A stretch of DNA of 64,000 bases from Psammoneis japonica (taxonomy: Eukaryota): positions 64,947-128,946 of the forward strand of contig QPGO01000113.1 in the NCBI GenBank assembly GCA_008632985.1. The letters run 5' to 3'. The translations under genes were made by a program, and so were the position numbers. Under the pieces are notes generated by a model. The model did no database searches. It had not been told where the DNA came from and worked only from the letters and a program-made list of their open reading frames with translations. Of the stretch, positions 13,188 to 61,635 are shown in pieces; the first letter of the stretch is position 1; every line of letters begins with the position of its first letter.

Positions 13188-13218
13188 TCCCTGCACTTCG
13201 CAGTTTGCAGTAAGCACC

Positions 13219-16262: not shown

Positions 16263-16616
16263 CTTGTTTGCTGCATGTCTGCTGCATTGCATTGGGGCTT
16301 GTGCTGCAGTTAAACAGAGCAAAAAAATTCCTGTGCCTTGACATGTGTTTCCCAGCTTCCTTCAGAGTGGAGCACCAGTCACAAGAAACCTGAAAAGCGA
16401 GTGAATGGAAACCCAAACAGACGTGCAGGTGCGCTGGTTGCAAGAAACAACAGGTCTTTGGGGCGCACATTTTGAAAGTCAGCATTTTCTTGTTGTTGAG
16501 TTTTTTGCTGGTGTTTTTTCTTCTTGTCAGCAGCATGTTGACAACAGCCCTCCTCTCCAGCAGAAAGCATGGCAGTTGACTTCTGCCATGTCCTTGGTTC
16601 CCATTGATGTTTGCCA

Positions 16617-19600: not shown

Positions 19601-19903
19601 AACAAAAGGTGGCACAATCAATCCAGACATCCAGCGGCAAGGAGACTTGACAGTGACGTTAAATTCCTGCCGATGCCTGGCATTGAATGCACGCAGACTT
19701 GCCGATGTACGCAGAACATGTGCGGAGGTCCACGCAGAATTGAGGTGGCATCGTCTGTAAATCAACGACGACGATGGCGGTTGCTCAATGGGTTGACAAT
19801 GAGCAAGACTGTCAATCTGACAGAAATTGAAGGCAAATGGCAAGAATTCAAACAATGACTCCTTGCTGCTGTCCAAACAGCAGATGAGTCTCCGCTCAGA
19901 GAC
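16617..19903 (+). repeat. 86-bp direct repeat pair (16617-16702 and 19818-19903) bracketing a 3.1-kb segment
   Basis: TGACAGAAATTGAAGGCAA.TGGCAAGAATTC...CCGCTCAGAGAC occurs twice with about 3 differing sites. Confidence 0.9.
17440..18115. repeat. 42-bp tandem repeat, ~15 units (reads PPDWMPQVSHLETR on the - strand)
   Basis: Unit TTGGGGCATCCAGTCAGGAGGCCTGGTCTCGAGGTGCGAGAC repeated head-to-tail without spacers, degenerating towards 17440. Confidence 0.92.
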
Positions 19904-34900: not shown

Positions 34901-35383
34901 TCGAAACCTTTTCCTGTCACAGAAAATGGGAAAAGAGAATTTCAAGAAATCAGTTGGGCACTGCTTGTTGGATGAGGTGTTGTCAAGCGCAAACGCAAGT
35001 TTGCAAAAAGAGCACCACGGCGCACCCAGGCTTGCCGCGCAACTGATGATGGTGTGTTGAGGGCACCAAGAGGGTCCATGAATTTGGACCCACTCCCAAC
35101 TGGGAGGTCTGTAACATTTGGACCCGTTGCACTCGACAAGACGCACCGGTGCGCTGTTGCTTTTGCTTTCAAGTTTGCATCAACAGCGTCGCCGAAGGCG
35201 ATGTTGTCATGCTTCGAAGCGTTGCATGAATTTTCGAAATCACGTAGCCGCTGTAGAATTTGTATGGGGACAAAGATATAACGGTTGATCTTGCTCACTA
35301 TCAACATTTGAGAGCTAATTACATTTTATGCTAGATTGCGTAGAATCCTACTCCACATAGCGGCAGCGAAATTCCAGCCATAT
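31941..35383. mobile_element. Foldback / long inverted-repeat element (arms 31941-33794 and 33857-35383, 62-bp spacer)
   Basis: The arms are reverse complements from ATATGGCTGGAATTT... to ...CAACTTGGTG. The right arm lacks ~315 bp (33215-33530). Possible TA TSD. Each arm carries the same degenerate outward-reading ORF. Confidence 0.88.
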
Positions 35384-41077: not shown

Positions 41078-41432
41078 TGTTACACTTCACGAAGCAATAT
41101 GACTTCGAACACAGAGACTCCTCAACAACAACGCTTTTTGTGTTGTCGTGTGAAAGCGGGAGTGGTCTGGTGTCGTGAAATTCTACGTACGTCCTCATAC
41201 TGAATCATGTATGTACAGCCTACAGAAACTGCGGTACAAAAGGGCATATGTTTCTGTCGAACCGGACATTGCGACTTTTTCTGAAATGTTATGACCAAAA
41301 ATAAAATACATCCAGATCTGAATAATATTTTTATTTCGTCGTAGCAACAATTATTGTTTGCGCAGCTTCCGCGCACCTCTGTTTTCCCGCGCAAAATTTT
41401 CCCACGCGATGCGCCGATCATCGATTGCAGAC

Positions 41433-42117
41433 TTTCATTGACCACTCAGCAGTGTTGGTGGCTGCAGACTTTCATTGACCACTCAGTGGTTGGTGCTTGA
41501 AGACTTTTTTGTGGCAGTCCGTCGGGGAGTCCCTCACGCAGTTAGGGAATCCGCCACAATTTGAAGGTGTGTCTCCCGTGTGCATTTTTGAATGGCACAT
41601 GGGCTGCTCAGTGCAAATGAGCTGCTCAAATTCACGGAATGATCATTGAGGACATTAGAGTTTGTGGGGACTTCCTAAAAAATTGACAAATTCCCTGCAA
41701 TGGGTGCATGGAACTGTTTTTCAGAAGAGCTTGAAACTGCTGCAAAATTGGGGTTGCCGGCACAGCATGTTGAAAAATGCGCTCAGCTTTGTGTGAAGAA
41801 AATTTGCAACGAGTTGCACATGAATTGGTCAGATTGAAAAAAAAACATGTCAAACAACAAAAGTGAGTTTCTGCAATGTGCTGTTTTGGCAGCAAATTGG
41901 ACAAAAAAGAGTGTCCGTGCACTCTTGCCACAACCCCAAAAATGGCATGAGCCATCAAACACAATGGCCGTCTGTGTTGCTGGCGGCCCTGCCACCCTGC
42001 CGCTGCACAGGCACTGTGCAACAGCAACAAACAATGCAGGCACTGCATGACAGCACACACCCACACCCACAAAGAGAAAGACAAATGGTCAATGCTCCCC
42101 ACAGGTGCCTGGTTTTT
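41433..42117 (+). mobile_element. HINE/DINE-1-like element, copy 3 (diverged, TpA-depleted, duplicated 5' end)
   Basis: CATTGACCACTCAG at 41436 and 41473; TGGTCAATGCTCCCC...CCTGGTTTTT end; colinear with copies 1 and 2. Confidence 0.68.
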
Positions 42118-43461
42118 GCTGAGTGCCCACACCGCCAACCAATGTCAGAGTGCTGCATGATTGCCAGTGTTGAGTGTGAAGTTTTGTGGGACAAGATTTG
42201 GGGTTAAGAGCAGAGGCTCAAATTGCAAGCCAATGACACACAAGCCAAAAGTTGTTTTTCTTTGTTGTGCCTCCTCCTTTCCAAAAGGAAATGGCGCTCA
42301 TTCTCAAGCTCTTGGGGAAGAGCCAGTGCTCCAGCCAAAGGAAATTTCTTGGGTGTGCTGTGAACAACAAAATGTGCCTGCTGCACATGCTCACAAGACA
42401 TTGGCAAAAATGGCAGGTGGCCAACCACCCTTGTCATCTCCCCTCCCCTTGCTCCCTCTGAATGCGCGCTTCTCTCTTGTCTCTCTTGCTGCTGCACACA
42501 CCACTTTCTCTGGTTTCTGCCAGCAGAGGCATGTGTCGCAACACAGCCCACCTGGGTGTCCACAAACTCTTTTCCACAAGAAAAAGTTTCAAAGTTGACC
42601 AGGCCTGCCCATTTTCTCCAGAGCCCTGCTGGGGAGGGGGTGTGCTGGAGTGCTGCTGCTCTCCACACATGCCGTTGTTTTTGGCAGCTTTCAACACCCA
42701 CACTTTTCTGTCACAGAGACCTGCCACAATTCAAATGTTGGCCAGTTGATTGAGCATGGTTTGTGGCTGTCAATTGTGGATGCTTTTCTCATTTTCTTCA
42801 CTGTGTGACACACTCTCTCTCTCACTCTGTTGTGCTGTTGTTCATGGTGGTGCAGTGCTGCCTTTCCCACACTGGGCATGGTGTGCCTGGCTTGCCTTTT
42901 GCCATCTTTGCTGCTCTGAATGACAAAGCAATCCATTTGACTTTCCAACCTCAATCAATGAGCACCAAGATTTTTCTGGCCTTGTTTTGGAGCTTTTCAA
43001 GATGGTGACAACTCCTGCCTGGAATTCTCCATCTGATGACATGGTCAAACAATGGCAAGCAGAAAAAGCACATGCCAGAGCAGGTGGGTTCTTGTGGTGT
43101 GAGATGTGCTGGCTTGAGTTGGAAACAAATTTAGGGGGTTCTCAAATTGCAGAATTTGCTCTCACTGCTGGCTTGTAAAAAAATGTTGCACTGCAAAGAA
43201 AGTGCAACTGTGTTGTTGTTAAAAGAAGTGGTTGCACTCATTCTGCATTCACACTGTGATCACATTGCAACAGACCCTCTCTCTGGCAGGGGCACCCCCT
43301 GCACAGGGGCACTCTCCATGCAGAAGCACCCTCCTCACAGGATGAGAGCCTGCAGTGCATGCCAGAGACAAATTTCCAGCATCAATTTGGACTTTGATGG
43401 TGACCTTAAAGACAGTGTCCAAGATGACAACTGGAGACAAATGCCCACACAGAAAACCAGC

Positions 43462-46400
43462 TGCAGCACGCGACTGTCATGTGCATGTTTGTGATTGTGT
43501 GTCATTTGTGTGTCAATCGCACCACAGTCGTGGATGCGTGCAAAGGACAGAACGATCACACAGAGTTGATCGGATGTCGAGAATTGCAAATGCGATCGAT
43601 TGACGCGCACCCGGACAATCTGTTGTCACGAATGTGTTCTCCGAAAGGCCTTTTGTCTGTAGAAGCAGTGCAGAAGCTTTGGGCCATTGAGAACTCGTTC
43701 GGAGAAACCAAAAATCACAGAGCAAAATTCAATCTTATAATTTCCACTTTTCGCACACTGTTCTACTTTCGTTTGCACTCGTTCTTTGAGCACAGTGCAT
43801 TGTGCACACACACCACAGAAGGTAAAAAGCACGGAAAATGAAAATTTTAACTAGTGTGCCTTTGCAAATTCTTCTACAAACAGGAACGAATCGCATCAGT
43901 TCTGCTGGAATCGATTTCCGAGCGGAAGAAGCTCAAGCCGAGCAGTGCCTCAAGATGGAACGCTGTTTTTCGTCTGCCAGACAAGAGGATTCGCTCCAAT
44001 GCGGTCCATTCCAAGCACCCAAGGATCAAGGGCTCTCAAGTGCACCGCATTGTCAAAAAATCTACACCAAGTCATGGTTGCAGAGAATGCAAGTTCCGAG
44101 TCGATCAGGTCCGAGAAATGCATCTGGCATGCAAGGAGAGACTGTTGGAGAGTTTTTGGAGACCGAATCAACGAGCCTCGAGTCCAAGAGCAAGATGGAA
44201 CCGTTGGAAAGTGCCTCAAGAGTCTCACATCTCATGTCTTTCCAAGAATTGCACTTCAGAATCAGAGTTGTTATTTTCAAGACGATCTGAAGAAACCAGA
44301 GCTGCTTGACAGCAAGAAAGCCTCTGTTAGACCCAAGAGGTCAATGATGAGAGTCTGTGCGACCCTCAGATGGATTCTAAGTCGAATCTAGTGGGAAACC
44401 GAGCGCTGATTTATCAGCTGTCACTCGCACCGCAAGGATGGCAGCATCAGTCTACTGTCCAAAACAATCAACTGTTGCAACTCATCCTTGATGAGCTGAT
44501 TAAGTTTTGAGTCATCTAAAGGTCGTTCATGACGTCCGTGACGAAAAAACATGTCAACTCAGGCTCTGACAGCGCAGTTGGTTCCAAAATAAAAAAGGTT
44601 CCAAATTTGGTTCCAAAAATGGTCTCCCACATGGTGCCAGAACAATCCAAAGTGAACGCAAGGTCTCATCTTTGAAAAAAGAATGCCTGCGTCACGGATT
44701 GAAGCCATTCTAAAAATGAACTAGCAAAAGAGTGCAAGGGTGACTCTGAAAGAGACCCAAAAATGCGCCGTTCAAATGGCAATCGCACGTGGTCGCGTCG
44801 CGACAACGAAAATGCTGCTCGCAAAAAAAGAGATGAATGTCATGATTGATCAGGCGGTTCAAAAAACACTCAAAGCGAGTTCCTTGAACAAAGAAAAAGA
44901 GCACAAGGGCAAAGAATCAGATTCTGGTGCCCTCAGTGAAGAAAAGTGCCAATTTGATCGGATGATCCAGACTGAATCCGAAGAATGATTTTGGTCTGTT
45001 CACGAATCACATGCTTTGCTGGATGTCAGGAAGCCCAGAAAAAAGGCAGAAATAATTCACACCAGTCCAGGAGTCATCATTTGCATGAACACTTCCTTGG
45101 GAAAGGAGAGAAAGAAAAAAAGCATCTGCGTGTTCCTGTCGACAACGGAACATCGTCAACCACAATTTTGCGCAAATTCGTGCGAAAGTTGAGAACACAA
45201 GAATCCGCCACCAAAAACTTGGGAAACCAAGGGTGAGCTCTTTACGACTGACAGCAAACACCGAATTCAGTTCTCACTGTGCGAAATTTAAGGCATGCCG
45301 ACATGCAAACAGCATGTGTTGAAAACACCAAATTTTCTTCAGGTTCAAATGATGTGATCATGGGACGCGACTTAATGTCCAGTCCTGCAAGTCACATTGG
45401 ACTGCGCAAATGAAGAAATCCAATGGGAAGAAGCAATCACCTTATGAAGAATGTTCACACACTCTTCGATGCCGATGTTTTCAAGCTGAAAACCGATCAC
45501 ATTGAAAAACATGACGCCGTGAATGGAGTCAATGACGGAACCAATGGTCCTCGACTCACATTGTCACGCCATCGATCTTAATCAAGTGACAACTGCGGCG
45601 ATGCATCTAACCCAAATGAACACAACCAACTCAATCTTCTTCTTAAGAGGTTGAAATCGTTTTGAAAAGTTCCTCAGACGAATGCATGGGAAGCACCAGT
45701 GGATCTCATCGTGGAAAATCTGACGCGATTCCACGACGCGTGAGAACCTTCTCCTGTCACAGTCTTTGGAGGCGTCCAATCAAAAGGAGTTTGACCTGTT
45801 GTGAAAGATTGAAGTCTTGAGAATGAAATTGCTCTGAACAAGTCGCTCTGAGACTCATTGTCTAAAGAAAACAGGTCGAGTTCGACCGCACCCGACACTC
45901 AGAAGCTCAGCACAAGGTTCGTGCAGGTGGTGCATCCTTTGCCCAACATTCAGGAAATGCTGTTGAAGCAAGAACGTTTCATGTGTGTAATCCATTTGAT
46001 TCAAACATGGAATGCCACCATGTCAAATAAAAAAAGCACACGTCGTGCTCACACGAAAATCATGCCGTGGGGAGAAAATGAGCACTGTGGACTTCCAATG
46101 AGAATCCACAGAGCCCCAGACATTTTTGTGCAACACTTGAGTGAACTCATGACAGGTTTGAAGTTGTCAGAACGACTGTGTGTGATCGTTTGTGCCTGAC
46201 AAAAGTAACTTCAAAATGTCACCTGCACAAGCAACAGCTTAATGCGGCATTCAAACGACTGGAACAGTCGCTTAGAAGGTTGACAACAAAAGTCCTTCAC
46301 TGTTTAACTTGAAATAAACTGTCAAGACTTCCATGCGCAACGACATGCAATCGATTGCAAAGAAAATGGAGGCGATTCAAGCAATCGCAACATGAGAAAA

Positions 46401-48164
46401 ACGTAAAGAACACTGCGACATCTCGTTGTCATACGTTGCCATTGTCAAGACATGTAGTCTCAACGATCTCCTGCACAATGCCAGCCAAATTCACCTCAAC
46501 AAAGGTCAAACGGCAAAAGTGCAAGTACGGAACGAAAAGTCTCCGAAAATGTGGAGCGCATCAAATCAAAAACCATGTTGTTGTCATGCACGGATTTCAA
46601 CATCACACGTTACAACGGAAAAAAGAACTTCTGTCCACAGTGAAAACACTCACAAAATTCCGAAACATGCTGTTTGGCCAACAGATTTGTGCATGTGCGG
46701 ATCACAAGACACAATGGACAAAGTCACACGTTGACAACTTCAGTCCCGAATTAGAGTGCAACGAGGGCAAGGCGAACATCGTCGCGACAGACGCGATCAG
46801 CCGACTTGCCACAGAAAATTGAATCCTACGACAATGTCCTGCCGTTAAAACGGGATAAAGACATTCCCTCCAAATTGTCGGGCGCGACATGTCATACGAA
46901 CACTTTTCGTGGAGGCGAGCGAGATCGAAAAATGCTCATGTCACAAGGACAAAATCGCCTTTTTAAAGGACGATTTAGGAAAAAACAGTGACAGATTGGT
47001 GCACATTATACGCACCCACTTCACACTGGCAAAAGACAATCTCACAACACCCGCACGGTTGCATTGTACAATGCACGAGGCAAGACATTAAAATGTGCAT
47101 CATGTCGACACACGAGATGTGCCAAAGATCTAGAAAAAGAAAAGAAAAATGGACATTTGTCCACTTGGTGCACGAAACCAGTGCCTTCGGAATGACAAAA
47201 TGACACCGGTGTGTCAGAAAGAAACGTCCAAATGATGATTAAAATCCAACTGACAGATGGTTGAAGTGCAAAAAAAAAAAAAAATCCATGATGGAATTCA
47301 CAACCATCACAGGATTGATTGTCAAGACGAAATGGTCATGACATCTTTGACCATCGTTTGTTGTCACTTATGAAATGTGGCAGTGCAGCAGAGCAATGTG
47401 GCACACAAAGTGAGCCCGCCAAACTACATGAAATCCACAAGCAAGCAAGTGAACGCCACAATTGAGAGCGCACATTAAGTGCTGGGCACGATGCCATGCA
47501 CAATCGACATCAGGAAAAACACTCACTCCAGGACAATCAGTCCTTGTGTTCACATCAACAAGAACGTCAATGAGAACACTCGACGCAATGCCACATGTGT
47601 GCACATTAAGTGAGAAACAAACAATGTCACTCTCAAAAGACATTCGGAAATTGGAACGGCCCCATGTTGCCCACACAAAACAACAACAGTCATTGCCAAC
47701 GGCACAACACAGTGAAAGTGGAGACATCATTGACACTGTCGATGTCCGTCGAATGATCCACTTACAAATGACTCCAATGTGCAATTAGGGAGGCGAATGC
47801 AGCATGCGACTGTTGCACACATGTTTATGATCATGTGTCATTTGTGTGTCAATCGCACCACAGTCGTGGATGCGTGCAAAGGACAGAACGATCACACAGA
47901 GTTGATCGGATGTCGAGAATTGCAAATACGATCGATTGACGATGTTGACATCTTGCGTGTCAACAGCAATCGTATCCGGACAATCTGTTGTCACGAATGT
48001 GTTCTCCGAAAGGCCTTTTGTCTGTAGAAGCAGTGCAGAAGCTTCAGGCCATTGAGAACTCGTTCGGAGAAACCAAAAATCACAGAGCAAAATTCAATCT
48101 TATAATTTCCACTTTTCGCACACCACTCTACTTTCGTTTGCACTCGTTCTTCGAGCACAGTGCA
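43462..48164 (+). mobile_element. Full-length degenerate Ty3/gypsy element (copy 2): LTRs 43462-43799 and 47798-48164, PPT 47787-47797, TSD CAGC
   Basis: Paired TGCA...TGCA LTRs, AGGGAGGCGAA PPT, 4-bp TSD (43458-43461 / 48165-48168), fragmented gag/pol closely matching copy 1. Confidence 0.92.
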
Positions 48165-48399
48165 CAGCAGTGTCTCTTGCTCATGCTGCAGCTGTTTCTT
48201 CATCTCAAGATGCAGCTGCAGTGACAGGAGGCAAATCAAGGGGCAGCAATTGATTCTTTCTGTCTCTCTTGTTTCTCTTTTCTTGAGAGATGCAGAGTGG
48301 AAACGAGGTGTGATGTGGCATCCAAAAAGAGTGGTGGTGGTGCCTCTGAAAAAAATGATGATGAACAGCATGTGATGCCACAAGGACTCAAGATTCCAC

Positions 48400-50700
48400 A
48401 CTCCAAATTCTCACATTGAGCTCACAAAAGAGCTTGCACAACAACTGCAAATGACTGCAATTGTGGTTGCAACAATGGCGCTTGCAACCAAACTGACCCT
48501 GCATGGCAAGTGCCAACTGTGATCTGGTGAACAGTTGCAACCAATGTTTTGCAGCCATTCTCTGCAACTTGAGGCCCCTGGAAAAATTCATTTTTTGCCA
48601 GCCACAATCTGTCTCCACTGCCTTTGTCTCTCCTGTCACACTGGGAGCCATCCTTGCCTTTGTGGCTGGCACCAAAGCCAAGCAAGGAGAAATGCACAAT
48701 CACCTCTGCAGAGCACACTTGCAAAATTGTTTTTCAGCTGCCACATGGCCACATTGAAAAGAAGTTGAAAAGCCACAAATCAGCTGCATGTGCCTCTGTG
48801 CTCTCTCACACAATTGTTTTCCCATGTGCTGCTGCCATCAGCCAAACCTTGGCTGCCACCTCCACCTGCTCCTGCGCCAAACCTGTTGAGGACAAGCACG
48901 GCACAAGCACCAGCAGAGTGGTCGTTTGGTCTCAACAAGAACAAAACAAAACCCAAAACCCATTTTTAAAAGTGCTGCTGCACTTCCACCCTGCAGCTCT
49001 GGCAGCAAGCTAACCTGCACCACTGCACAAAGTGTGACAGCTGGCCAGGATTGGCACCACAGTCAGGTGATGCCATGGCAAAATGACTTGCAATGGTGTG
49101 CACACCTCCAGCAGCCATGGATGCTTGACTTGAGCATGAAGCCATGGCCAACCAGTTGTGCACTCCATGGTGTGCCAAGCAAGTGAGGTGAGCATCAATG
49201 ACCAAGTTCAACAGATGCAACCTCTCCTTTGTCAAATGGTTGTCTGCTCCAGAGTGAAGTTGTGCCTTGACTTCCACCTCAGCATTGCAGTGCTGAGGAA
49301 ATTTCCCATTCTTGGTTGGAATCATGTCCATGAACTTTGTGTCATCATGTTGTGAGTCCCGCAGTTGCCAACACAGTTGCTGCCCAAAAATTGACCAACA
49401 GACAGCTGATGCCAGCCAATGCTGTCTCCCAAGAATGGAGTGTTTTGAGGACACTGCAGCAAAGGCCATTGTCAACGCAGATCATCTCCTCATGAAACCA
49501 ACACTTGAGAGCAGATCATGAAAGCAAGTCACACAAGGATGCAAACATGTGAGCATCATCACACTTCTTGTGCAAGTGGCCTTGAAGGAACTTTCGACAC
49601 TGGGCTTTTGTTGCAGCAGGGGCACTGGAGCATCATGTGATCTCCATCCTCCACAGGATGTTGACAATGTGCACCACAGTCAGGCAGGTGGGATTGTGCT
49701 GACAAATGATCTTGTTCATTGGCGACAAATCTCAGATGAGCTCAATTGCACTGTGACTTTTCAACAAATGTTTTGTGATGCAAGCTTGGAGTGGATGGGC
49801 CAATCAACAAATTTGAGGAGGATGTCTCACAACCAGCCACACTTCTTCTTCTTCTTCACATGCTGATGTGCAAGGTGGCAGGGCTGGAGAAGCTTCGCAC
49901 CAAAGAAAACAGGCTTGTGTTTGAAAGAGACAGAAAAATCTTGGGCAGCTGAGTTTGCAGAGCAGCAAGACACATGTGGAGCTGGAAGAGCATCCCCAGG
50001 TGCAGGCCTTGGTGACCACTTGCCAACTTGTCATCTTGGACATTTTGCTTGGCAGGAAGAGACAAAGACATGTGCAGGGCGGCATTTCATCATCTTTGTG
50101 TGCTTTGACCCAATGGACATCAACTGAAGAAGTGCCAGATTGTTGGCCCGCTGTTGATGACTCCACAATTTGCTGAAAGGAAACAAACACACTCGCAACA
50201 TGATGCCAATGAAAACGGTCTCTGTCTGCACTGGATGACTCCCCATTTTCAGGAGGTGGAGGCAGCAGGGCACCACAAAAGTCAAAAACATTCTGGACCA
50301 ACACAGAGTTGTCATCACAGTGCATGTCAGTGCCTCAGAGAAAAACCTGATTGCAAGATCCCACAAGTCAAAAAAGGATCTAAAGAAAGGAAAACAGTCT
50401 GGAAGCTGCAATGCTCTCAACTCTGCCAGCCTGCCAACACATGGGTTGCAATGTTTGCAGATGATCTGAGCAAGCATCCCAGCAACTGGCCAACAGCTTG
50501 TCTGGCACATCTGCCCTGTCTCCAAACCATCAAATTGAAGTTGATGGCAATCCACACACAGCTTGCATTTGACACTGTTCCCAATCAATTTCTTTAACTC
50601 AAGACACTCTTGTCAACAGCAAGAAGTGTCATGAACTTTTCCATGTCCCCGCAAATGCAAGAATCAACAGTTGGAAAAGCCACCACTTCTGGACACTGAC
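48400..50700 (-). mobile_element. Highly degenerate RNase H-containing non-LTR retrotransposon remnant
   Basis: VHWVKAHKDD (HWVKAHQD-like) and CD.NS.LV RNase H-like motifs, with a downstream IPT...P.C...E...HL knuckle-like segment; both TA and CG are nearly absent. Confidence 0.45.
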
Positions 50701-51227
50701 TGAACATGTCAAGAATCAAGAACAAAGATCATGATGCATCAACAGTTGTCATTGTTTGCTTCTCTTGTTTGCCACTTGCTTCAAAGGCGAATTTCAAATT
50801 GAGGAAAGGGCCCGCGTTGCACAAATCATCTGCCGGTGAGGCTCGGTCTACAGGTGTGCACTGTGCTCGAAGAACGAGTGCAAACGAAAGCACAACGAAG
50901 TTCAAAAGGTGAAAATTGTGAGAATTGTTTCTCAATGGCCTAAACCTTTTGTACTGCTCCTACAGACAAAAGGCCTTTCGGAGAATATGATCGTGACGAC
51001 AGATTGTCCGGATACGATTGACATTGACACGTAAGATGTCAACATCATCGTACGATCGCATTTGCGATTCTCGACATCCAATCACTTCTGTGTGACTGAT
51101 CTGTACTTCGTACGAACCCACGATTGACGTACGATTGAAATATACTTTTATTTAATATATACATATACATATATAATACGTACATGACAACGCATATTGC
51201 ATTCGCCTCCCTAATTGCACATTAGAG

Positions 51228-54200: not shown

Positions 54201-54356
54201 TCCGCTGTCGAGGAGAACGCGCAGAGGCTCATTTTTCGCCTTGCCCAATGAAGCATTCACATGGGCGACAACTGCTGGACTAGTGTGAATTACTTTGGCC
54301 CTTTTTCTGGGCTTCCCAATGTCCAGCAGAGCGCAAGACTCCTCTTGCAGTGCAAG
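51228..54356 (-). pseudogene. pol: pol of gypsy copy 3 (PR-RT-RH-IN), frameshifted and hypermutated
   Basis: LLDSG protease, YIDD RT, TDAS/IAFYSRKL RNase H, H...LHPG..C..C and D-D-E integrase, GPY motif. Deletion/frameshift near 52810 and frameshift near 52300. Confidence 0.9.
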
Positions 54357-55513
54357 TCATTCCTCAGAATCACTGCGCATCATTTTTTCAAACTGACAAT
54401 TTTCCTCGTCAAGGGCATCAGAATCACAATCTTTGCTCTTGTGTTTTTTGTCATTGTTCGAAGAACTCGCTTTGAGCATTTTTTGAACTGCTTGGATCGC
54501 CACAGCATTCAACTCTTCTTTGCGAGCGGCGTTGTCGTTGTCGCGACGAGACCACGTGCGATTGCCATTTGAACGGCGCCGTTTCGGGTCGGGTTCACAG
54601 TTCCCACGGCGTTCTTTTGCAAGTCTTTTGATCGACCAGCACTTGTCCGTGTTATGAGTGGATTTCTCGCATGAAATGCACCACTTCTCGGACTGAGATT
54701 TTTCGGTGCCATGTTGGTGACCATTTTTGGAACCACGTTGGGAACCACTCTTGGCTTTTGATGCAGCACCGCCACTGCCATCAGCCTTGGCATGAATGCC
54801 ATCAAATGTGTCTTCTGCGACCTCTGGGCGCTCCAAGAACTCAACCAACTCGTCACAGGCATGTTTCAAAATTTCGAAACCCTGGACGGTCGACTGACGC
54901 TGCCACTTTCGAGGTGCAAGGTTGAAGAGGATGTCCTTGAGCTCGTCGTCCTCGATCTTCTGTTCCTTCCCAAAGGGAGGATAGAACTTGAGGTCTTCGT
55001 TGACTTCCTGGACCCAAGCAGCAATTTCGCGTGCTTTCATGGACTCCGGCTTCTTGAGATCACGACGCAAACAACGTTTCTGTGCCGAAAGTGCGTTCTT
55101 GGGAAACACATGCCTCGTGAGATGTTGCAGGCATTTCTCGAAGCTTCCTTCCGCAGATTCGTCTTCAAGGTTCGCTGCCGCATTCTCGAAAGCACGTAGA
55201 GCGTCTCCTTGAAGTAACATGTGCATGAGACGAAACTTGTCAGATTGCTTCCTGATGTTCTGGCCCACTGGAAGTTGATCGTAGCTCTTGAGAAATTCGA
55301 TGAACTTGGGGACACCTTGTTTCTTGTAGTGCTCAACATTGATGGTGCAGGTGCGGCTATCCTTCTTCTCGGGATGAAAACGTTGCTCCATCTTGAGGTG
55401 CTGGCTCGGTTTGAGGCTCTTCGGCTCGGAGTTCGATTCCAGCGGTTGAGGGACGATTTTCTCCTGCCTTGACGAAGTTTTGGCATTGGTTGCATGAGGT
55501 GAAAGCTTCATCT
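54357..55513 (-). pseudogene. gag: gag of gypsy copy 3
   Basis: LLQGDALRAFE...LTRHVFPKNAL..QKR(Y>C)LRR.LKKP capsid-like segment and WC..C....HNT..C knuckle; TA-type missense changes. Confidence 0.8.
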
Positions 55514-58500
55514 TGAACTTATTACCTTCTGTGGTGTGTATACACAATGCACTATGCTCGAAGAACGAGTGTAAACGAAAGTATAACGAAGTTCAAAAGG
55601 TGAAAATTATGAGAATTATTTCTGCGCAATCATTTTGGGTTTCTCCGAACGGGTTCTCAACAGCCTAAACCTTTTGTACTGCTCCTACAGACAAAAGGCC
55701 TTTCGGAGAATATGATCGTGACGACAGATTGTCCGGATACGATTGATATTGACACGTAAGATGTCAACATCATCGTACGATCGCATTTGCGATTCTCGAC
55801 ATCCAATCACTTCTGTGTGACTGATCTGTACTTCGTACGAACCCACGATTGACGTACGATTGAAATATACTTTTATTTAATATATAGATATACATATATA
55901 ATACGTACATGACAACGCATATTGCAGGTGAACCGCGCCGGATCGGATCGACGGATCGGATCGCGTCAGAATTCCGTTAGTCGACAGGTGGAACCGGATC
56001 GGATCGCGGATCGGATTCGACATTTTGATGAGTCGCAAAACGACATAAGTTTCAAGATTCCAAACTCCCAAGAACAACAAAGCGCTGACAACAGCGAACA
56101 ACAAGAAGTGTGGCCATGATGCTTCACATCTTGTCATAACGTGACGATATGACGACAGAACCATACTGTTATTACTGCTATACATACATATGAGACCGCA
56201 TCATTGAGAATCGTTGTCACTCAGTGTTCGCAGCAACGCTAAGGAAGAAAAAGCTATCACTTTTGTAATTAGGAAACTAATGCAAATGTTTTCGTATTGA
56301 AATTTCGAATTAAATAATAAATACTTGTTATTTTGCTTATTCAATGTTTCTCCAACAAATCTATACGGCATTATCGGTTTGACAAGCTATTCTATTGCCA
56401 TGCGACCTTTCTCATCGTCATTTCGAGCATGGGAAGACTTTGACTATAATGCTCAGAATGTTCCTTGCCCTTATGGCTGAATCTTATGCCGTTCTGTGTC
56501 ATAATCGTGTGATGTTGTGCCATTGTCGTGATGACGGCACGGAATCTTCAAAATTGGATCCGACATCCGATCCGAGATGGCGGATCAGTCCCACGAAGGC
56601 CACGGATCGACTTTTTGACTCGATGGACTAACATTTTAATGGGTTATGAAGGAGTCGATCCGGCGATCCGATCCGGCTCGGTTCACCTGTAGACCGAGCC
56701 TGAGACCTTGCACCTTTGCAACTTGTGCCAGATGTGCTGCCATTCTGTCTCATCTGGTTCCACAAGACAAAGACCAAATGTGTCAAGACTCTTTGCATTT
56801 TAACTGCCTTCATTCTTGGCTCAACAAAAGAAAAACACCCAGGATGGAAGAATCTGACCGGCGGACCTTTGCAAAGCAGCTGCTTGAGCACTCTGATGAA
56901 TGATGGGCTGTTCTTGAAGCTGCAAAAAGTCCTTTTCTGCCTGGACACTTTCTTGTCTTCACTTGGAACATCCTCGTCCAATGATGTTTCTGCTGCTGCC
57001 ACAATGGCAAAAAAGTGTCTCCATTGGAGAACTCCAATTGTTTTTGCCAACAACAGTGCCCAGCAGGGGATCTGTGGCAGGGTGTCATGTGAGAGCTGTG
57101 TTGTTGGAAAATGAAATCTTCCTGCTGATGTCGAACTGATCAAGATTGTCTGGGATCATGGGATGGAACAACCCAACACTGCCAGCACCAAATCCAAAGT
57201 CCTCCATGGAAGTTAGTTTTCTTTGGGGCTGGGCACAAAAAATTGCACGCGCATGATCTCAAAGCAAGTGGGCGGCAGTTGTGATTTTCTGGGGGGCTGC
57301 CGTGTTCTGTTGCCTGGCATCCAAGCAAGTGCAACCTTTTTTTTGACAAGTTTTTTCAAGAGACTTGAGTTGCACATGGTTTTGGCAACATGTTTGTCAG
57401 TTGACATGATGGCATCACATGCCTGGCCAGTCTGATTGAGTGCATTGATGGATCCCGCATGGCGACCCATGATTGGAACAATGACCATGCATGGCAAAAC
57501 ATCAAGGCAGTTTTTCTGACCAGCTGGCAGCATCTTTTTGAAATCCATGTGTGCTTGATGCCTGCATCATTGACTCTGTTTGCTTTTGTGCACTTTTTGT
57601 TTGACCCGTGGAGGAGACAGGTTGTTTCAGACCAACTGCGTTGTTGATCAACACCAAACAAAAAATCCTTCACAAACCAGAAGGAAAGGGCAGCTGTTTC
57701 ACCCACCAGAACAAGATGAGCAATTTCCACTTCATGGCTGTGTTGCTCCCCAAAAGCACGTTTGTTCTCAAAATGGCCTGTCGGCTTTGGCTCTGGGAAC
57801 TTGTGCGGGTTTGTCCATCAAATCATGTGTTGGTGCCACATGTTGTTTGTGCACAGCTTTGTGCACACACTTGTGTGGATTGTTGGTGATGAGACGGACA
57901 GCACATGTTCAACAGGCTTCAGTTCTTTGCTGCTGCTGTTGTTGTTGCTGCACGCAGCTGTCCAGTGCTTGGATTTTGATTGAGTCAAATTCGATTGTTC
58001 CATTTGGCATTCTGCTGACTGGTTTTTGTCATTTTTGCCATTGTTCTCTTGATGGTTGATCGCATCAGAATCTGCTTGAGCATTTGCATCACACACCCCA
58101 TTGCTGACCAACAATTCATTGATCAGGGCAAAACAACTGCCGAACGAAATTTCCCTTTTGTCAACAAGAGAACAAAAAAGCTCATCTTTCTGAGCTTCCA
58201 ACAGTGTCAAGTCTCTTGTTGTCACCTTCAGAGCCCTGGCATCATCTTCTGCAGCTTCCTCCATGCTGCAGCACAGGTGCTTTTTGTCAAGAGTGTTCAA
58301 CAGCAAATCTTTGGCACTCTGCTCCAGTTCCAAGTTGTTGCTGTTCTTGTTGGTTCTTGATCAAAGAACATTGACTGCAGCTGGTTCGGCAATGTTTTTT
58401 GCTTCATTCCCAGCACTGCAAAGCACAGCACTGGAAAAGGAAAACAAGCAAGAAGGAGCCAAGGTTGGAACAAACAAGGGCTCAACAGGCATTGAGAATT

Positions 58501-59046
58501 GGAGAAGGAGACACACAAGAAGAGATTGAGCAAGTCAAAGATGCAGAGCAATTTGACAAAGTGTGGTCCAAGGAATTTTGGGAATGCATTGACAGCCCAG
58601 AAGCCACCATGATGGACAGGATGGGCAACAAGACAACAATGGAGGACAATGACAACATTGATGAAGAGGAGTTGTGTTGTGTGGAAGCATCGCAGACAGC
58701 AGCAGTGCAGCAATTGGAGCGATGATTCACAATGAAAGGTGAGACAAGAAACAGCTGATTGCCAATGTGAAAAGGGAGCCAAACAGCAAACAAAAACCTG
58801 AAGCAACAGCACACTGTGCAGTGGGGTTGCATTGAAGTCCTCCATGTTGCATGACAACCAGACATGGTGGGCACAGCTGTGTGAAAAGTCAGCACACCAG
58901 CGTGACAAATGCCCAAATTAAAATGAGCTGGGACCCACAGTTCTTGCAGCAGAGTGTGGTGCTGGCTTGAGGTGAAAAAATTCATTTTTTGCCATCCACA
59001 CTCTGGCAGTTTTTGGAGTTGGTGTTGCGCGCATCTCCACCATCTT

Positions 59047-60897
59047 TGTTGGAACATCAGGGTGCAAAGAGTGATTTTTGCAGAACAGACAGACAATGTT
59101 GCAGTGAGCAATGCACTGTGAGGAGCATTGATGCCATTGTGCTCACAACTCATGTCAGTCAGGGGTCTTGTGCTCACTTTTTAGCTTCTGCACCCAGTTG
59201 ACATGGTGGTGGCAGCAATGGCAACAAAAGTGCATTTGCAATCCATGTGGCAAGTCAGGGTTGGTGAGACTGAGCACACACCAGCTGGCAAGTGGCAAAA
59301 TCTCAACACAGAAGCTGAAAAGGACCAGCTGGGAAGTTGTCAGAAATCCAAAAGGCGCAGCTCATGTCAATGGATTGTGGCACAAACAAGCTGGCTGGAT
59401 GAAGGCAGAGAAACAGTCTCTGGCAGAGAACCTTGCTGTGAGGAAGCTGTCAAGGGTCTGCCAAAAGAGGGTGTGGCAAAGTTGTGTCAGACTGGGAAAA
59501 ACATCAACTTGAGCAAGGATTGCGCAGCTGAGTGCAGAAGCACAAAAGATTTGAAGGAGTGTGTGCATGACACTCATTGCCAAGTTGGGTTGACAGGCAG
59601 ATGGTCACACAGAGACCACAAGAAAAACAAGCTGGCATGTCAGAACAATGTTTGGGTCAGCAACAATGTGCAGGTGCTGGTGTCTCTCAGGCAGGAGAAC
59701 AAACCAGCAGAGGAGCCAGAGTGTCCATTGAGCACAGCTGTGCTGGAGAAGGAAAAGGCAATCTGGGAAAGCAATGCAGTCATTGTGTGAAACAGGATGC
59801 AATCTACAAGACACAGAAGGTGAAGACATTTGGCACAATTGTGGGACAGTGCATGAAGGCTGTCCATCACAAGAGGTTGAAGCAGAGTGGCAGAGTTTGA
59901 GAGGGTCACAAAGGAGTGGGGCATGGCTGGGCACTGTTGAAAAAGCTCAAGTCAATCTTTTTTGAGATGCACATGAGAGAATCTGCATGAATGTCCAGAC
60001 AGCAGTTGGTGCTGTTGGGAATCCTCAAGTGGATCTTGTTTGAAGCAAGCAAGAGAATGTGCTTGCATGTCCAGGCTGCCAAGGCTTGGAAGGAGTTGGT
60101 CCTCATTCATCAGGATGAAGGAGAGGTGCTTCAAGATTGTTGCAATTGTTGGCTTGTGAGCATCCTTGAGATGGTGGAAGGGCCCTGCAGCAGACTTGTC
60201 CCAGAAGAAATCACCAAGAAAGAAGATGGGTTGGCAAAAGTGCTGATGACAACCAGAAGAATGAAAGGAACAAGTTGTTCATGGTGCTGCCAGTCAAGGG
60301 CACCAAGGAGTGTTGATGCATCTTGAAAAACCTGCGCCAGCAGTTCACACTGGGGATCAACAATTGCCCCAATTTGGCTGAGGAGGCACTGCAGGTGTTG
60401 GACACATGCAGAGCTGACAAGAAACATGAGCTCATGAGCTTTGTGCAAAATGAGAAGAAGCAGCTCAAATGCTGGAAATGTGACAAGGTTGGGCATGTGA
60501 AGAGGAACTGTCATTTGCTCAATGATGATGATGATCATTTGTCAGTGGAGTTGGAACATGTCAGCCATTGGGATTGACAAGGCAGTTGACTTGGTGTTGG
60601 ATGAAGTGGTGGTTTCCAACTGCCATCCTCCTCTGAGGAGTGTGTTGGAACATCAGGGTGTGAAGTGGTTTTTGCAGGACAGACAGACAATGTTGCAGTG
60701 AATGATGCACTGACAAGTGGTGTTGATGACTTGACAATTTTGTCTTTGCAACTCATGTTGAGTTGTGGGTCTTTTGCTCACTTTTTAGTTTCTGCACCCA
60801 GTTGACAGAGAAACAGCAGTGGTGTCAACAGAAATGTGTTTGCAGTCTACACAGTGAGCCAGGGATCTGCAAAACTGAACACACACCAGCTGGCAAG
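59047..60897 (+). mobile_element. Degenerate gag-only copia (CoDi-like; TR-GAG-like) element with ~245-bp LTR-like repeats (59047-59291, 60643-60897)
   Basis: Direct repeats start TGTTGGAACATCAGGGTG; GAGGAGTG PPT precedes the second; gag remnant TLGINN(Y>C)P...EALQVL and CWKCDKVGHVKRNC knuckle; no room for pol. TSD not found. Confidence 0.55.
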
Positions 60898-61208
60898 CCA
60901 CGCATGTGCACCATAGAAACACGTGCACATGTCACCAGGATGTCTCCACTCAGCCAAAAAAGCTTTGCCCAATGCTGGGATCACCTGTTGGCTGGACGCC
61001 ACAAACAGCAAGTTGCTGCCTTGTTGGGGTGTGACTCATTGATTTTCCAGGTTGAGCTGCACCACACTTGCAGTGCTGCAACAATCTTGTTGGAGGGACA
61101 AAATCATTTTGTCTGTTGGGACATTGCAAAGCCATCTGATGGAAGTGTGTTGCGATCTCTGAGTTTTGCAAATTCCATCGATGACAACAAGCAAGAGCAC
61201 TGCTCAAC

Positions 61209-61635
61209 AGACTGGCTCTGCAAAGGTTTCAGATTCTGAGAAATTTGGTTTGCAGGAAGCTTTGCAAAATGTGACCTCTCCTGCACGAATCAACATTGAG
61301 AAAGAGAACCAACACGTGCAGCAAGTGTTTCCGCTTGAAGGCAAAGCAAATGTGAGTGCCAGAAACAAGGAGTGCTGAACCAAGATGAACAGACTTCAGA
61401 GTCACTGCTCGCGACTTGGGGTGTTCCAACCTGCTTGCCGCACTGATGGTCTGTCGTGTACAACAAGACGGCCATTGGCTGGCCCACAATAACAAAGAAA
61501 CAAACCCAGAAGACAATGTTTGGCATGCCAAGCAGCCTCTGAAAAAAGTACTTTGTGATTGCCACCAGAGGAAACATCATGCCAACAAAGGACCAAGGGC
61601 GGATTACATGGAAGGGGATGCAAATGAGAAGATCG
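61209..61635 (-). pseudogene. Degenerate tandem duplicate of the DGAT1 3' coding end and 3' flank (template 61653-62072)
   Basis: Reads LLICIPFHVIRPWSFVGMMFPLVAITKYF...NIVFWVCF...GQPMAVLLYT, with indels relative to the gene. Confidence 0.85.

What the first reader, a model, noticed from the sequence alone, without database searches (positions are those of the whole stretch)
41436..61480. Candidate new genome-defence system: RIP-like TpA->TpG/CpA (A:T->G:C) hypermutation confined to transposon domains
Seen: TpA is almost absent from every repeat block. By eye there are about 5 TA in 42121-43461 and about 4 in 48165-50836, where tens to >100 are expected; neighbouring genes have ordinary TA. 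The same holds for ~1-2900, 15400-21250, 25000-28270, 32120-35230, 51735-55500 and 56700-61480. Direction is fixed by conserved gypsy motifs. The 516-aa PR-RT ORF keeps one Tyr; expected GYYHIEL, GKYEY, INYYRDMW, PYHAKP and IIEEYSP read GCHHIEL, GKCECC, INCCRDMW, PHHAKP and TMEEHSP. These changes, plus KELLSI>KEPLST, are what TA>CA/TG gives for TAY, CTA, TTA, GTA and ATA codons. Unrelated element types (LTR, LINE, HINE-like, foldback, host-derived DNA) are all hit. Established: fungal RIP is C>T and creates TpA; 5mC decay is CG>TG/CA; ADAR and APOBEC editing of retroelement intermediates is strand-asymmetric. None fits. Inference: a chromatin-targeted process mutates A (or T) of TpA on both strands. 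Candidates are a TadA/ADAT-like DNA adenine deaminase, deamination of 6mA, or Pol-eta-type error-prone repair in methylated DNA. I know of no description of this in diatoms.
Basis: partly seen in the sequence, partly recalled or inferred. Interest (0 to 1): 0.95.

Follow-up and report, generated by a model that had tools for sequence, protein, structure and literature searches.

The report
TpA-erasing hypermutation of diatom transposons
In this diatom DNA, transposon-derived blocks have had nearly every TA dinucleotide turned into TG or CA while neighbouring genes are untouched, which matches a mutation process first reported in 2026 in an unrelated alga and whose enzyme is still unknown.

Summary
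Nine blocks, about 31.5 kb of the 64 kb, have TpA o/e of 0.03-0.17, against 0.54-0.95 in the genic DNA between them. Edges are sharp to 100 bp or less. TG and CA rise to o/e 1.5-2.0.

The direction is TA>TG/CA. In five comparisons of a TA-normal paralogue with a depleted copy, 159 TA sites gave 55 TG, 52 CA, 15 kept, and only 6 reverse changes. Of 15 Tyr columns conserved in 80 gypsy homologues, 11 read His or Cys here.

A>G per strand is 0.39 at TpA and 0.02-0.06 elsewhere. TAA is a poor target.

The change happens in place, after integration. The sister LTRs of one gypsy copy differ by 6 of 6 TA lost in the 72 bp that touch a depleted block, but by 1 of 26 in the next 273 bp.

78 metagenomic relatives of the gypsy are TA-normal. 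Host genes point to a diatom.

The same signature was measured directly in Bigelowiella natans (bioRxiv 10.64898/2026.01.13.699255). My searches found no diatom report. I rate it a new member of a known kind. The enzyme is unknown, and raw reads could not be checked.

The parts
1..2800 (-). Gypsy copy A, internal part, cut by the window start. TpA-depleted (o/e 0.17) with CG near normal (0.86).
3007..3415 (-). 5' LTR of gypsy copy A. It is TA-normal and serves as the unmutated reference for copy B's LTR.
   Evidence: 32 TA in the A LTR correspond to 14 TG, 9 CA and 6 TA in the B LTR.
12528..13195 (-). Segment N: a TA-normal paralogue of the first ~650 bp of two depleted blocks. It lies just upstream of the DUS3L gene.
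   Evidence: N against L1 gives 29 TA > 15 TG, 11 CA, 1 kept, 0 reverse.
15600..21200 (.). Strongly depleted block (TA 0.07, CG 0.51). It begins with L1 (15600-16262) and holds a 42-bp tandem array at 17380-18219. No Pfam family was found.
25101..28100 (.). Strongly depleted block (TA 0.07, CG 0.36). No Pfam family was found.
31941..35383 (.). Foldback (long inverted repeat). The inner part, 32101-35200, is depleted (TA 0.07). The outer ~150 bp of each arm is TA-normal.
   Evidence: over 1530 aligned bases the arms differ at 21 TG<>CA sites and 44 CG<>TG/CA sites.
41401..43460 (.). Left half of a strongly depleted element (TA 0.06, CG 0.29). It begins with L2 (41463-42116) and is split by gypsy copy B.
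43461..48164 (+). Gypsy copy B, nested in the depleted element with the 4-bp target duplication CAGC. Both its LTRs (43461-43799 and 47798-48164) and its interior are TpA-depleted.
48165..50856 (.). Right half of the split depleted element (4 TA in 48165-50836).
50857..55926 (-). Gypsy copy C. LTRs are at 50857-51201 and 55548-55926, with gag, PR-RT, RNase H and IN ORFs between. Depletion covers 51801-55500 and the outer 72 bp of the left LTR. The rest of the LTRs and the IN C-terminal region are TA-normal.
56701..61600 (.). The most strongly depleted block (TA 0.03, CG 0.16). Its last 400 bp (Lb, 61203-61600) is a mutated copy of the adjacent TA-normal 61647-62037.

Best explanation
The transposon-derived blocks have undergone a real, DNA-level hypermutation that acts in place. 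It converts TpA to TpG or CpA (an A:T>G:C transition at the A, or at the paired T) on both strands, until almost no TpA is left. It acts on stretches of a few kb with edges sharp to 100 bp or less. It spares neighbouring genes and short stray copies of the same repeats that sit in gene flanks. It is much faster than the CpG>TpG/CpA decay seen in the same blocks.

Shown: the direction, the TpA specificity, the use of both strands, action after integration, and the poor targeting of TAA.

Inferred: the agent is a dedicated base-modifying enzyme aimed at silenced transposon chromatin. My first choice is a DNA adenine deaminase of the TadA/ADAT kind, which would make inosine that is read as G. I also infer that this is the same kind of process as the TpA hypermutation measured in Bigelowiella natans, and that it serves to inactivate mobile DNA.
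For: 1. Depletion and mass balance. In the six strong blocks, TA loss (39 per kb) plus CG loss (30 per kb) equals TG+CA gain (71 per kb), both strands summed, measured against the window's genic DNA.

2. Polarity from paralogues. Five pairs of a TA-normal reference against a depleted copy gave 159 TA > 55 TG, 52 CA, 15 kept, 3 CG, 34 other, with 6 reverse changes. The best pair, N against L1 over 619 aligned bases, gave 29 TA > 26 TG/CA and 1 kept, with 0 reverse, only 4 A:T>G:C changes outside TpA, and 24 transversions. A control pair of two TA-normal LTRs is symmetric, 6 against 5.

3. Polarity from proteins. Among 80 homologues, 15 columns are at least 70% Tyr. Copy C has Y at 1, C at 7, H at 4 and other residues at 3, with TGY/CAY codons. 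It keeps P at 19 of 19, D at 14 of 15 and G at 16 of 18 conserved columns. Tyr is 0.2% against a mean of 3.73% (minimum 2.5%) in 120 hits.

4. Context. A>G per strand is TA 59/150, AA 15/256, CA 13/204 and GA 4/182. Within TpA it is TAC 21/43, TAT 26/54, TAG 8/23 and TAA 4/30. Surviving TA in the strong blocks are mostly TTAA (0.48 of the genic density) and CTAA/TTAG (0.29), while ATAT is 0. At half-sites the predicted product outnumbers the other 32 to 14, p = 0.011.

5. Action in place after integration. For the sister LTRs of copy C, the outer 72 bp abutting a depleted block has 6 mismatches, all TA lost (6 of 6). The inner 273 bp has 4 mismatches and 25 of 26 TA kept. The sister LTRs of copy B differ at 7 TG<>CA sites and 4 TA-against-TG/CA sites, while 19 of 20 CG are kept. 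Copy B inserted into an already depleted element, with target duplication CAGC, so the process acted more than once.

6. The ancestor was TA-normal. Copies A and B differ at 48 TG<>CA dinucleotides in 2796 aligned bases. This implies about 140 ancestral TA (about 5%) resolved independently. The 78 metagenomic relatives have TA o/e 0.59-1.18. In 30 of them, TA is 6.4% in the RT region, against 1.1-1.6% here.

7. Precedent. In B. natans mutation-accumulation lines, 230 of 231 mutations in two viral inserts are A>G/T>C, all of these at TpA, giving TpG or CpA.
Against: The bases therefore rest on the assembly, plus one run whose contigs hold 0.87 of the sampled 31-mers of 54001-63900. That run may be the source sample.

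No whole genome is held. I therefore have no genome-wide picture, no candidate enzyme, and no test of ongoing activity.

In copies A and C, the LTRs and the last ~600 bp of C's interior are spared, with a sharp edge inside the integrase ORF. A simple 'whole element is silenced and mutated' model does not predict this. Recombination between mutated and unmutated copies is an open alternative for these two copies. It is also open for the 72-bp LTR end, where the edge coincides with a 34-bp indel.

The strongly depleted blocks have no recognisable protein domain. Their transposon nature rests on repeat structure and nesting alone.

None of the 78 metagenomic relatives is depleted. However, the search pattern contained two Tyr, so it was biased against mutated copies.
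Confidence: 0.75

Rival explanations
1. The process is the same, but the chemistry is on the thymine. A TET/JBP-type dioxygenase marks T in RTA context within silenced repeats (5hmU or 5fU). The oxidised base mispairs with G and gives T>C, which on the other strand reads as A>G.
For: The sequence data cannot tell whether A or T is the mutated base. TAY on one strand is RTA on the other. In dinoflagellates, another SAR lineage, TET/JBP homologues make 5hmU that is enriched in repeats and linked to TE silencing (PMC11572971, abstract and passages). That oxidised thymines mispair with G is recalled, not from a call.
Against: No call gives evidence for thymine modification in diatoms. The authors of the only measured case favour adenine deamination.
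Confidence: 0.15
2. It is a sequencing or assembly artefact. A base modification at TpA (and 5mC at CpG) in transposon chromatin is misread by a long-read basecaller, so the real DNA still has TA.
For: The pattern hits exactly the two palindromic dinucleotides that could carry symmetric modification, and only in TE domains. I could not lay reads.
Against: - Products are TG or CA and almost never CG (3 of 159). Independent miscalls on the two strands, merged in a consensus, should often give CG or TA.
- The two depleted copies L1 and L2 mostly share the same product at the same site, as read by eye off the alignment (4 shared, 1 different). This is as expected for inherited mutations.
- Host ORFs of 520-1020 aa are intact, so the consensus is of high quality.
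- Contigs of a small run hold 0.87 of exact 31-mers across a stretch that is half depleted block. Noisy reads would hardly give this.
- In B. natans the same changes were called from Illumina data.
Confidence: 0.06
3. RNA- or cDNA-stage editing during retrotransposition (ADAR-like on RNA, or a deaminase on single-stranded cDNA) produced the depleted gypsy interiors, and each new copy arrived already mutated.
For: In gypsy A and C the LTRs are spared while the interior is saturated, although C's LTRs are about 99% identical over 273 bp. A and B were mutated independently.
Against: - Both strands are hit equally (55:52). Sense-strand TG and CA both gain about 1-3 percentage points against 30 relatives. 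Editing of the genomic RNA would give A>G on the sense strand only.
- Sister LTRs diverged by TA loss after integration.
- The foldback, segment Lb and the L1/L2 ends are hit without any sign of a retroelement.
- The untouched part of C includes the region just upstream of the 3' LTR. As far as I recall from APOBEC3G on HIV (not from a call), single-stranded-cDNA editing is strongest there.
Confidence: 0.05
4. Error-prone patch repair. T:G mismatches from 5mC deamination recruit non-canonical mismatch repair and a Pol-eta-type polymerase, which mutates A:T pairs nearby.
For: TA loss and CG loss rise together across blocks. Ranked by TA o/e from 0.03 to 0.17, the CG o/e values run 0.16, 0.29, then 0.36-0.67 for three blocks at TA 0.07, then 0.33, 0.79, 0.84 and 0.86.
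Against: - As far as I recall, Pol eta's hotspot is WA. Here AA is not hit (15/256, against CA 13/204), and changes are almost purely transitions at TA.
- The gypsy copies lose 80-85% of TA with CG o/e 0.79-0.89. In copy B's LTR, 6 of 32 TA but 21 of 24 CG are kept.
- Metagenomic relative L010 has CG o/e of about 0 with TA 0.42-0.88.
Confidence: 0.04
5. It is native composition or selection. These elements are TA-poor by descent or by selection against TA. GC-biased gene conversion is a variant of this idea.
For: None beyond the depletion itself.
Against: - Relatives are TA-normal.
- Conserved Tyr are destroyed.
- TA-normal and depleted copies of the same sequence lie a few kb apart.
- Gene conversion bias would raise all A:T>G:C changes, not only those at TpA (26 against 4).
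Confidence: 0.01

Closest known systems
TpA hypermutation of integrated viral DNA in Bigelowiella natans (Mettrop et al., bioRxiv 10.64898/2026.01.13.699255). I read the abstract, the whole Results and the whole Discussion.
   Same: - Almost exclusively A>G/T>C changes, only at TpA, giving TpG or CpA on either strand.
- Local domains of foreign or mobile DNA beside normal flanks.
- A long-term footprint of low TpA with high CpA+TpG.
- RT and DDE Pfam families enriched among TpA-depleted genes there.
[quoted passage not shown]
   Different: - The host is a diatom (Stramenopila), not a chlorarachniophyte (Rhizaria).
- The targets seen here are a gypsy retrotransposon, a foldback and unclassifiable repeats, not NCLDV or virophage inserts.
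- Depletion is near saturation (o/e 0.03-0.17). The NCLDV insert there has Rho 0.45 and the virophage insert none.
- It coincides with CpG decay, which that text does not mention (0 occurrences of 'CpG').
- A 3'-neighbour effect (TAA poor, TAY best) is seen here. The main text there has no word on flanking context, and I could not see its figures or supplements.
- There the rate was measured directly. Here only the footprint is seen.
Repeat-induced point mutation (RIP) of Neurospora and other fungi
   Same: It acts on DNA in place, saturates mobile elements with transitions, destroys their ORFs and leaves a dinucleotide footprint.
   Different: RIP is C>T, mainly at CpA, and creates TpA. Here TpA is destroyed and G+C rises. 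RIP hits all copies of a duplication. Here short copies in gene flanks (segment N, the LTRs of A and C) are spared although they are repeated. The properties of RIP are from general knowledge and from the abstract of PMC7296669 in the listing.
5-methylcytosine deamination decay of methylated transposons
   Same: CpG>TpG/CpA is present in the same blocks. C>T at CG is 25/156, against 0.04-0.055 in other contexts. CG o/e goes down to 0.16.
   Different: It cannot remove TpA. The two are separable: the gypsy copies lose TA but keep CG, and relative L010 lost all CG but kept TA.
ADAR hyper-editing and APOBEC editing of retroelement intermediates
   Same: These are deaminase-driven transition clusters in mobile elements. 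ADAR prefers a 5' U, as the preprint's Discussion states.
   Different: Those act on RNA or single-stranded cDNA and are strand-asymmetric. Here both strands are hit, sister LTRs diverge after integration, and stretches with no sign of a retroelement are hit too.

Membership tests
TpA>TpG/CpA hypermutation as described in Bigelowiella natans | Changes are almost only A:T>G:C transitions | tested here: met
   In N against L1, 26 TA>TG/CA changes are the largest class, followed by 24 transversions and 14 CG>TG/CA. Only 4 A:T>G:C changes lie outside TpA.
TpA>TpG/CpA hypermutation as described in Bigelowiella natans | Restricted to the TpA dinucleotide | tested here: met
   A>G per strand is TA 0.393, against AA 0.059, CA 0.064 and GA 0.022.
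TpA>TpG/CpA hypermutation as described in Bigelowiella natans | Both strands are hit (TpG and CpA products) | tested here: met
   55 TG: 52 CA among 159 polarised sites.
TpA>TpG/CpA hypermutation as described in Bigelowiella natans | Confined to integrated foreign or mobile DNA, with normal flanks | tested here: met
   HMM blocks with edges of 100 bp or less. Gypsy Pfam domains. Nested insertion and foldback structure. The strong blocks themselves have no Pfam hit.
TpA>TpG/CpA hypermutation as described in Bigelowiella natans | Directly measured, ongoing rate about 1000-fold above background | not testable with these tools
   No reads could be laid and no lines exist here. The footprint alone implies a much higher per-base rate at TpA than background, if the change happened in place.
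TpA>TpG/CpA hypermutation as described in Bigelowiella natans | Same enzyme or homologous machinery (an ADAT2-like candidate is proposed there) | not testable with these tools
   No genome is held for this window.
Fungal RIP | C>T transitions that create TpA and lower G+C | tested here: not met
   TpA is destroyed. The depleted blocks have G+C of 0.45-0.54, against 0.41-0.49 in the flanks.
Fungal RIP | All copies of a repeated sequence are hit | tested here: not met
   Segment N and the LTRs of A and C are repeated in the window but TA-normal.
ADAR/APOBEC editing of retroelement intermediates | Strand asymmetry, and changes fixed before integration | tested here: not met
   55:52. Sister LTRs differ by TA loss.
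Pol-eta-type WA-motif mutagenesis | A:T mutations at both TA and AA, with transversions (motif recalled, not from a call) | tested here: not met
   AA 15/256 is no higher than CA 13/204.
Ty3/gypsy LTR retrotransposon (copies A, B, C) | LTRs with TG..CA ends, a polypurine tract, and PR-RT-RNase H-IN order | tested here: met
   RVT_1, RT_RNaseH, Integrase_H2C2 and rve in that order on the minus strand. LTR pairs. TG..CA ends, a purine-rich tract before the 3' LTR, and the 4-bp duplication CAGC for copy B.

The most novel reading that the evidence does not exclude
Diatoms and chlorarachniophytes share a chromatin-guided DNA base-editing defence that erases TpA from silenced mobile DNA. It would be an A:T>G:C counterpart of fungal RIP, spread across the SAR supergroup, and run by a natural DNA adenine deaminase (or a thymine oxidase) with TAB preference. 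In diatoms it runs to saturation and is laid over the 5mC-marked transposon compartment.
Probability: 0.35. Interest if true: 0.9.

Novelty: new member of a known kind. Interest (0 to 1): 0.72.

Why it matters
- It would extend the TpA-specific A:T>G:C hypermutation from one chlorarachniophyte to the diatoms. Diatoms are a major, genetically tractable algal group, so the enzyme could be sought by knock-out.
- As far as I know (recalled, not from a call), the adenine base editors in use are laboratory-evolved TadA variants. A natural enzyme that makes A>G changes in DNA at a defined motif would therefore be of biotechnological interest.
- It gives extra constraints on the mechanism: TAA is a poor target, the domain edge is sharp to 100 bp or less, the process is much faster than CpG decay, and repetition alone is not the trigger.
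- It matters for annotation. Mutated elements lose homology (no Pfam hit in the strong blocks). They also lose the TAA and TAG stops, so they throw up many long false ORFs (98 of at least 110 aa in the depleted blocks).
- A simple TpA/TG+CA scan would find this hidden transposon fraction.

Tried and rejected
- Whole genome: none is held. No genome-wide scan, TE consensus or enzyme search was possible.
Nothing was laid.
- Sequencing runs: three coded runs of one sample. X1 holds 0.87 of the words, X2 0.22, X3 next to none. No RNA holder is listed.
- Pfam on ORFs in the depleted blocks. One search listed 98 ORFs of at least 110 aa. Of these, 84 were scanned: 83 had no family and 1 was a weak RNase H inside gypsy B. 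Nine more had been scanned, and only the gypsy C ORFs hit. Five small ORFs inside gypsy C were not scanned. The LINE/HINE labels could therefore not be verified.
- Metagenome scan for gypsy relatives: 593 relatives found, 78 loci kept, none TpA-depleted. The pattern LDLNMGYY contains two Tyr, so mutated copies were selected against. This is no evidence on how widespread the process is.
- Sense-strand bias in the gypsy copies: o/e values suggested TG > CA. Measured against 30 relatives, however, both gain by similar amounts, so I dropped the claim.
- Earlier findings of this scan: nothing on this genome. The listed phage cases of CA/TG bias are unrelated.
- Literature searches: no paper on TpA loss in diatom transposons. 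Only the B. natans preprint describes the signature. bioRxiv supplements are closed, so its Tables S2-S12, which may hold flanking-context data, were not seen.
- BLAST of the strong blocks against each other and the rest of the window: beyond the L1/L2/N and Lb/Nb segments and the LTRs, no homology was found, so their families remain undefined.

Full report
**Observation.**
- A 1-kb scan shows TpA o/e of 0.01-0.28 in about half of the window, with TG+CA o/e up to 1.96.
- A two-state HMM on TA counts cuts the window into nine long depleted blocks and genic stretches between them that are mostly at o/e 0.54-0.95.
- Edges fall within one 100-bp bin. Examples are 8 TA then 1 at 32100, and 4 then 0 at 56700.
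- The blocks fall into two grades. Six are extreme (TA 0.03-0.08) and also CpG-poor (0.16-0.67). Three are the interiors of gypsy copies (TA 0.14-0.17) with nearly normal CpG (0.79-0.86).

**What the blocks are.** The window holds three copies of one Ty3/gypsy family:
- A: 1-3415, minus strand, cut by the window start.
- B: 43461-48164, plus strand.
- C: 50857-55926, minus strand.

Copy C has RVT_1, RNase H, integrase zinc-binding and rve domains in the usual order. Copy B sits inside one of the extreme blocks, flanked by a 4-bp duplication, CAGC. The stretch 31941-35383 is a foldback.

The extreme blocks give no Pfam family. Of the 98 ORFs of at least 110 aa that one search listed in the depleted blocks:
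- 84 were scanned. 83 gave nothing and 1 was a weak RNase H inside copy B.
- 9 had been scanned, and only the gypsy C ORFs hit.
- 5 small ORFs inside copy C were not scanned.

The labels LINE and HINE-like are therefore unverified. The 'host-derived' piece is better read as a stray end-fragment of a repeat family. Segment N (12528-13195) is TA-normal and lies just upstream of the DUS3L gene. It matches the first ~650 bp of two extreme blocks, L1 at 15600 and L2 at 41463.

**Direction, from paralogues.** Wherever a TA-normal copy and a depleted copy of the same sequence exist, the TA of the first are TG or CA in the second.
- N against L1 (619 aligned bases): 29 TA gave 15 TG, 11 CA and 1 kept, with no reverse case.
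- A's LTR against B's LTR: 32 TA gave 14 TG, 9 CA and 6 kept. 23 of the 48 mismatches are of this type and 2 are the reverse.
- Pooled over five such pairs: 159 TA gave 55 TG, 52 CA, 15 kept, 3 CG and 34 other, against 6 reverse. N>L1 and N>L2 share the reference and are not independent.
- A control pair of two TA-normal LTRs is symmetric, 6 against 5.

**Direction, from proteins.** Among 80 homologues of the PR-RT ORF of copy C, 15 columns are at least 70% Tyr. Copy C keeps Tyr in one of them, the YIDD motif. It has Cys in 7 and His in 4, with TGY and CAY codons. It keeps 19 of 19 conserved Pro and 14 of 15 conserved Asp. Its Tyr content is 0.2%, against 3.73% on average (minimum 2.5%) in 120 hits.

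**Specificity and context.**
- In three pairs, counted per strand, A>G occurred at 59 of 150 TpA. It occurred at 15 of 256 ApA, 13 of 204 CpA and 4 of 182 GpA.
- Within TpA the 3' neighbour matters: TAC 21/43, TAT 26/54, TAG 8/23, TAA 4/30.
- The survivors agree. In the extreme blocks TTAA stands at 0.48 and CTAA/TTAG at 0.29 of their genic density. ATAT is at 0, and ATAC/GTAT and ATAG/CTAT are each at about 0.02.
- At sites where only one strand reads TAY, the product predicted by that rule outnumbers the other 32 to 14, p = 0.011.
- Read on the other strand, the same rule is RTA with T>C. The data do not say which base is attacked.
- The main text of the B. natans preprint has no word on flanking context. 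Its figures and supplements were not visible to me.

**Action in place, after integration.** The two LTRs of a retrotransposon are identical when it integrates.
- In copy C, the 72 bp of the left LTR that abut the extreme block carry 6 mismatches to the sister LTR, and all 6 are TA lost (3 TG, 3 CA; 6 of 6 TA).
- A 34-bp indel follows. After it, the next 273 bp carry 4 mismatches, and 25 of 26 TA are kept.
- In copy B, the LTRs differ at 7 TG<>CA sites and 4 TA-against-TG/CA sites, while 19 of 20 CG are kept.
- A TG<>CA difference is what independent resolution of one ancestral TA gives. Copies A and B show 48 such sites in 2796 aligned bases, plus 34 sites where only one copy still has TA and 11 where both do. 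With half of independent resolutions expected to be discordant, this implies roughly 140 ancestral TA, about 5%. That is a normal content (inference).
- The foldback arms show 21 such sites and 44 CG<>TG/CA sites.
- Copy B entered an element that was already there and was then mutated itself. The process therefore acted repeatedly or continuously.
- Repetition alone is not the trigger. N and the LTRs of A and C are repeated in the window and are untouched.

**Relation to CpG decay.** In the extreme blocks, C>T at CpG is also raised: 25/156 against 0.04-0.055 in other contexts. TA loss plus CG loss balances TG+CA gain: 39 + 30 against 71 per kb. The two processes are nonetheless separable.
- The gypsy interiors lost about 80% of TA with CG o/e 0.79-0.89.
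- B's LTR kept 6 of 32 TA but 21 of 24 CG.
- The metagenomic relative L010 has CG o/e of about 0 with TA 0.42-0.88.

TA loss is therefore much the faster process here, and it is not a general by-product of CpG methylation decay.

**Rivals.**
- Native composition is excluded. 78 metagenomic relatives have TA o/e 0.59-1.18, mean 0.79. In 30 of them TA is 6.4% in the RT region, against 1.1-1.6% here. That search pattern contained two Tyr, so it says nothing about how common mutated copies are elsewhere.
- Editing of the genomic RNA is excluded as the main cause. Products are symmetric (55:52). Sister LTRs diverge after integration. Stretches with no sign of a retroelement are hit too.
- Pol-eta-type repair fits poorly, because ApA is not hit.
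- GC-biased conversion would not be TpA-specific (26 against 4).
- A basecalling artefact at modified bases is the one rival I could not test directly. Four things argue against it. CG products are nearly absent (3 of 159). L1 and L2 mostly share the same product at a site (read by eye off the alignment). Host ORFs are long and intact. One run holds 0.87 of exact 31-mers over a stretch that is half depleted block, although that run may be the source of the assembly.

**Unexplained.** In copies A and C, the LTRs and the last ~600 bp of C's interior are TA-normal. The edge lies inside the integrase ORF. All 5 Tyr of that ORF lie in its C-terminal part, on the TA-normal side of that edge. The cause could be a chromatin boundary or recombination between mutated and unmutated copies. 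The window alone cannot decide. The same caveat applies to the 72-bp LTR end, whose edge coincides with an indel.

**Organism and literature.** The DUS3L ORF has its best named hits in pennate diatoms (Mayamaea, Amphora, Seminavis, Epithemia, Nitzschia) at about 46-56% identity over most of the ORF. The best hit overall is 62% and unnamed. The nearest Atlas cluster of the 1020-aa ORF is mostly Bacillariophyta.

A full-text search for the signature found one paper, Mettrop et al., bioRxiv 10.64898/2026.01.13.699255. I read its abstract, Results and Discussion.
- In mutation-accumulation lines of B. natans, 231 of 302 nuclear mutations fall in one NCLDV insert and one virophage insert.
- 230 of these are A>G or T>C, all of them at TpA.
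- 124 clusters of TpA-poor, CpA+TpG-rich windows exist in that genome.
- RT and DDE domains are enriched in TpA-poor genes.
- An ADAT2-like protein is proposed as the enzyme.
- The paper does not mention diatoms or CpG.

Six further searches found no report for diatoms or other stramenopiles.

**Mechanism.** I read this as the same kind of process as in B. natans: an enzyme-driven, locally targeted conversion of TpA in DNA.
- My first choice for the chemistry is adenine deamination by a TadA/ADAT-type enzyme. As far as I recall, these enzymes' natural target, A34 of tRNAs, always follows U33. This is inference, with no support from any call here.
- The second choice is thymine oxidation by a TET/JBP enzyme. 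One such enzyme marks repeats with 5hmU in dinoflagellates (PMC11572971, passages).
- Targeting by silent chromatin and a defence role are inferred from the sharp domains, the sparing of gene-flank copies and the ruin of the ORFs.

**Verdict.** The feature is real and striking. It is a new lineage and a far more saturated instance of a phenomenon described only in 2026, with added detail on context, tempo and domain edges. It is not a categorically new system.

Noticed in passing
window 15601-21200, 25101-28100, 56701-61600 and the other depleted blocks: Because TAA and TAG are erased, the depleted blocks are full of long overlapping ORFs in several frames. One search lists 98 of at least 110 aa, including 533 and 527 aa on one strand at 16841-18953. 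None has a Pfam family outside the gypsy copies. Gene finders would call false genes here.
   Followed up: partly
window 17380-18219: A tandem array of about 20 units of 42 bp lies inside a depleted block. Its origin is unknown.
   Followed up: no
window 12528-13170 and 15600-16262: The DUS3L gene is bracketed by an inverted pair of a ~650-bp repeat. One arm is TA-normal and the other is mutated. The mutated arm also carries a ~40-bp expansion of a TCGGGCAG-like motif at 15641-15680.
   Followed up: partly
window 51228-52367 (-): The edge of the depleted domain of gypsy C lies inside the integrase ORF, near 51800. All 5 Tyr of the ORF lie in its C-terminal part, on the TA-normal side of that edge. 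The cause could be recombination or a chromatin boundary.
   Followed up: partly
window 3809-6871 (+): A 1020-aa ORF has no Pfam hit. Its Atlas neighbours are diatom hypothetical proteins and NOL11/Utp8-like nucleolar proteins. This is a lead only.
   Followed up: no
L010 (metagenome contig), whole locus: A gypsy relative has CpG o/e of 0.00-0.18 over 3 kb but ordinary TpA. Its host shows heavy CpG decay without the TpA process.
   Followed up: no
window 11501-11800 and 37401-37800: The HMM flagged two short TA-poor stretches (o/e 0.12 and 0.21) with normal CpG, inside otherwise genic DNA. They may be chance or coding composition.
   Followed up: no
window 54357-55592, 52710-54356, 52111-52938, 51228-52367 (-): Gypsy C's gag and pol are split into four ORFs: an in-frame stop after gag and two frame changes inside pol. 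The copy is therefore dead apart from its Tyr loss, although its LTRs are about 99% identical over 273 bp.
   Followed up: partly
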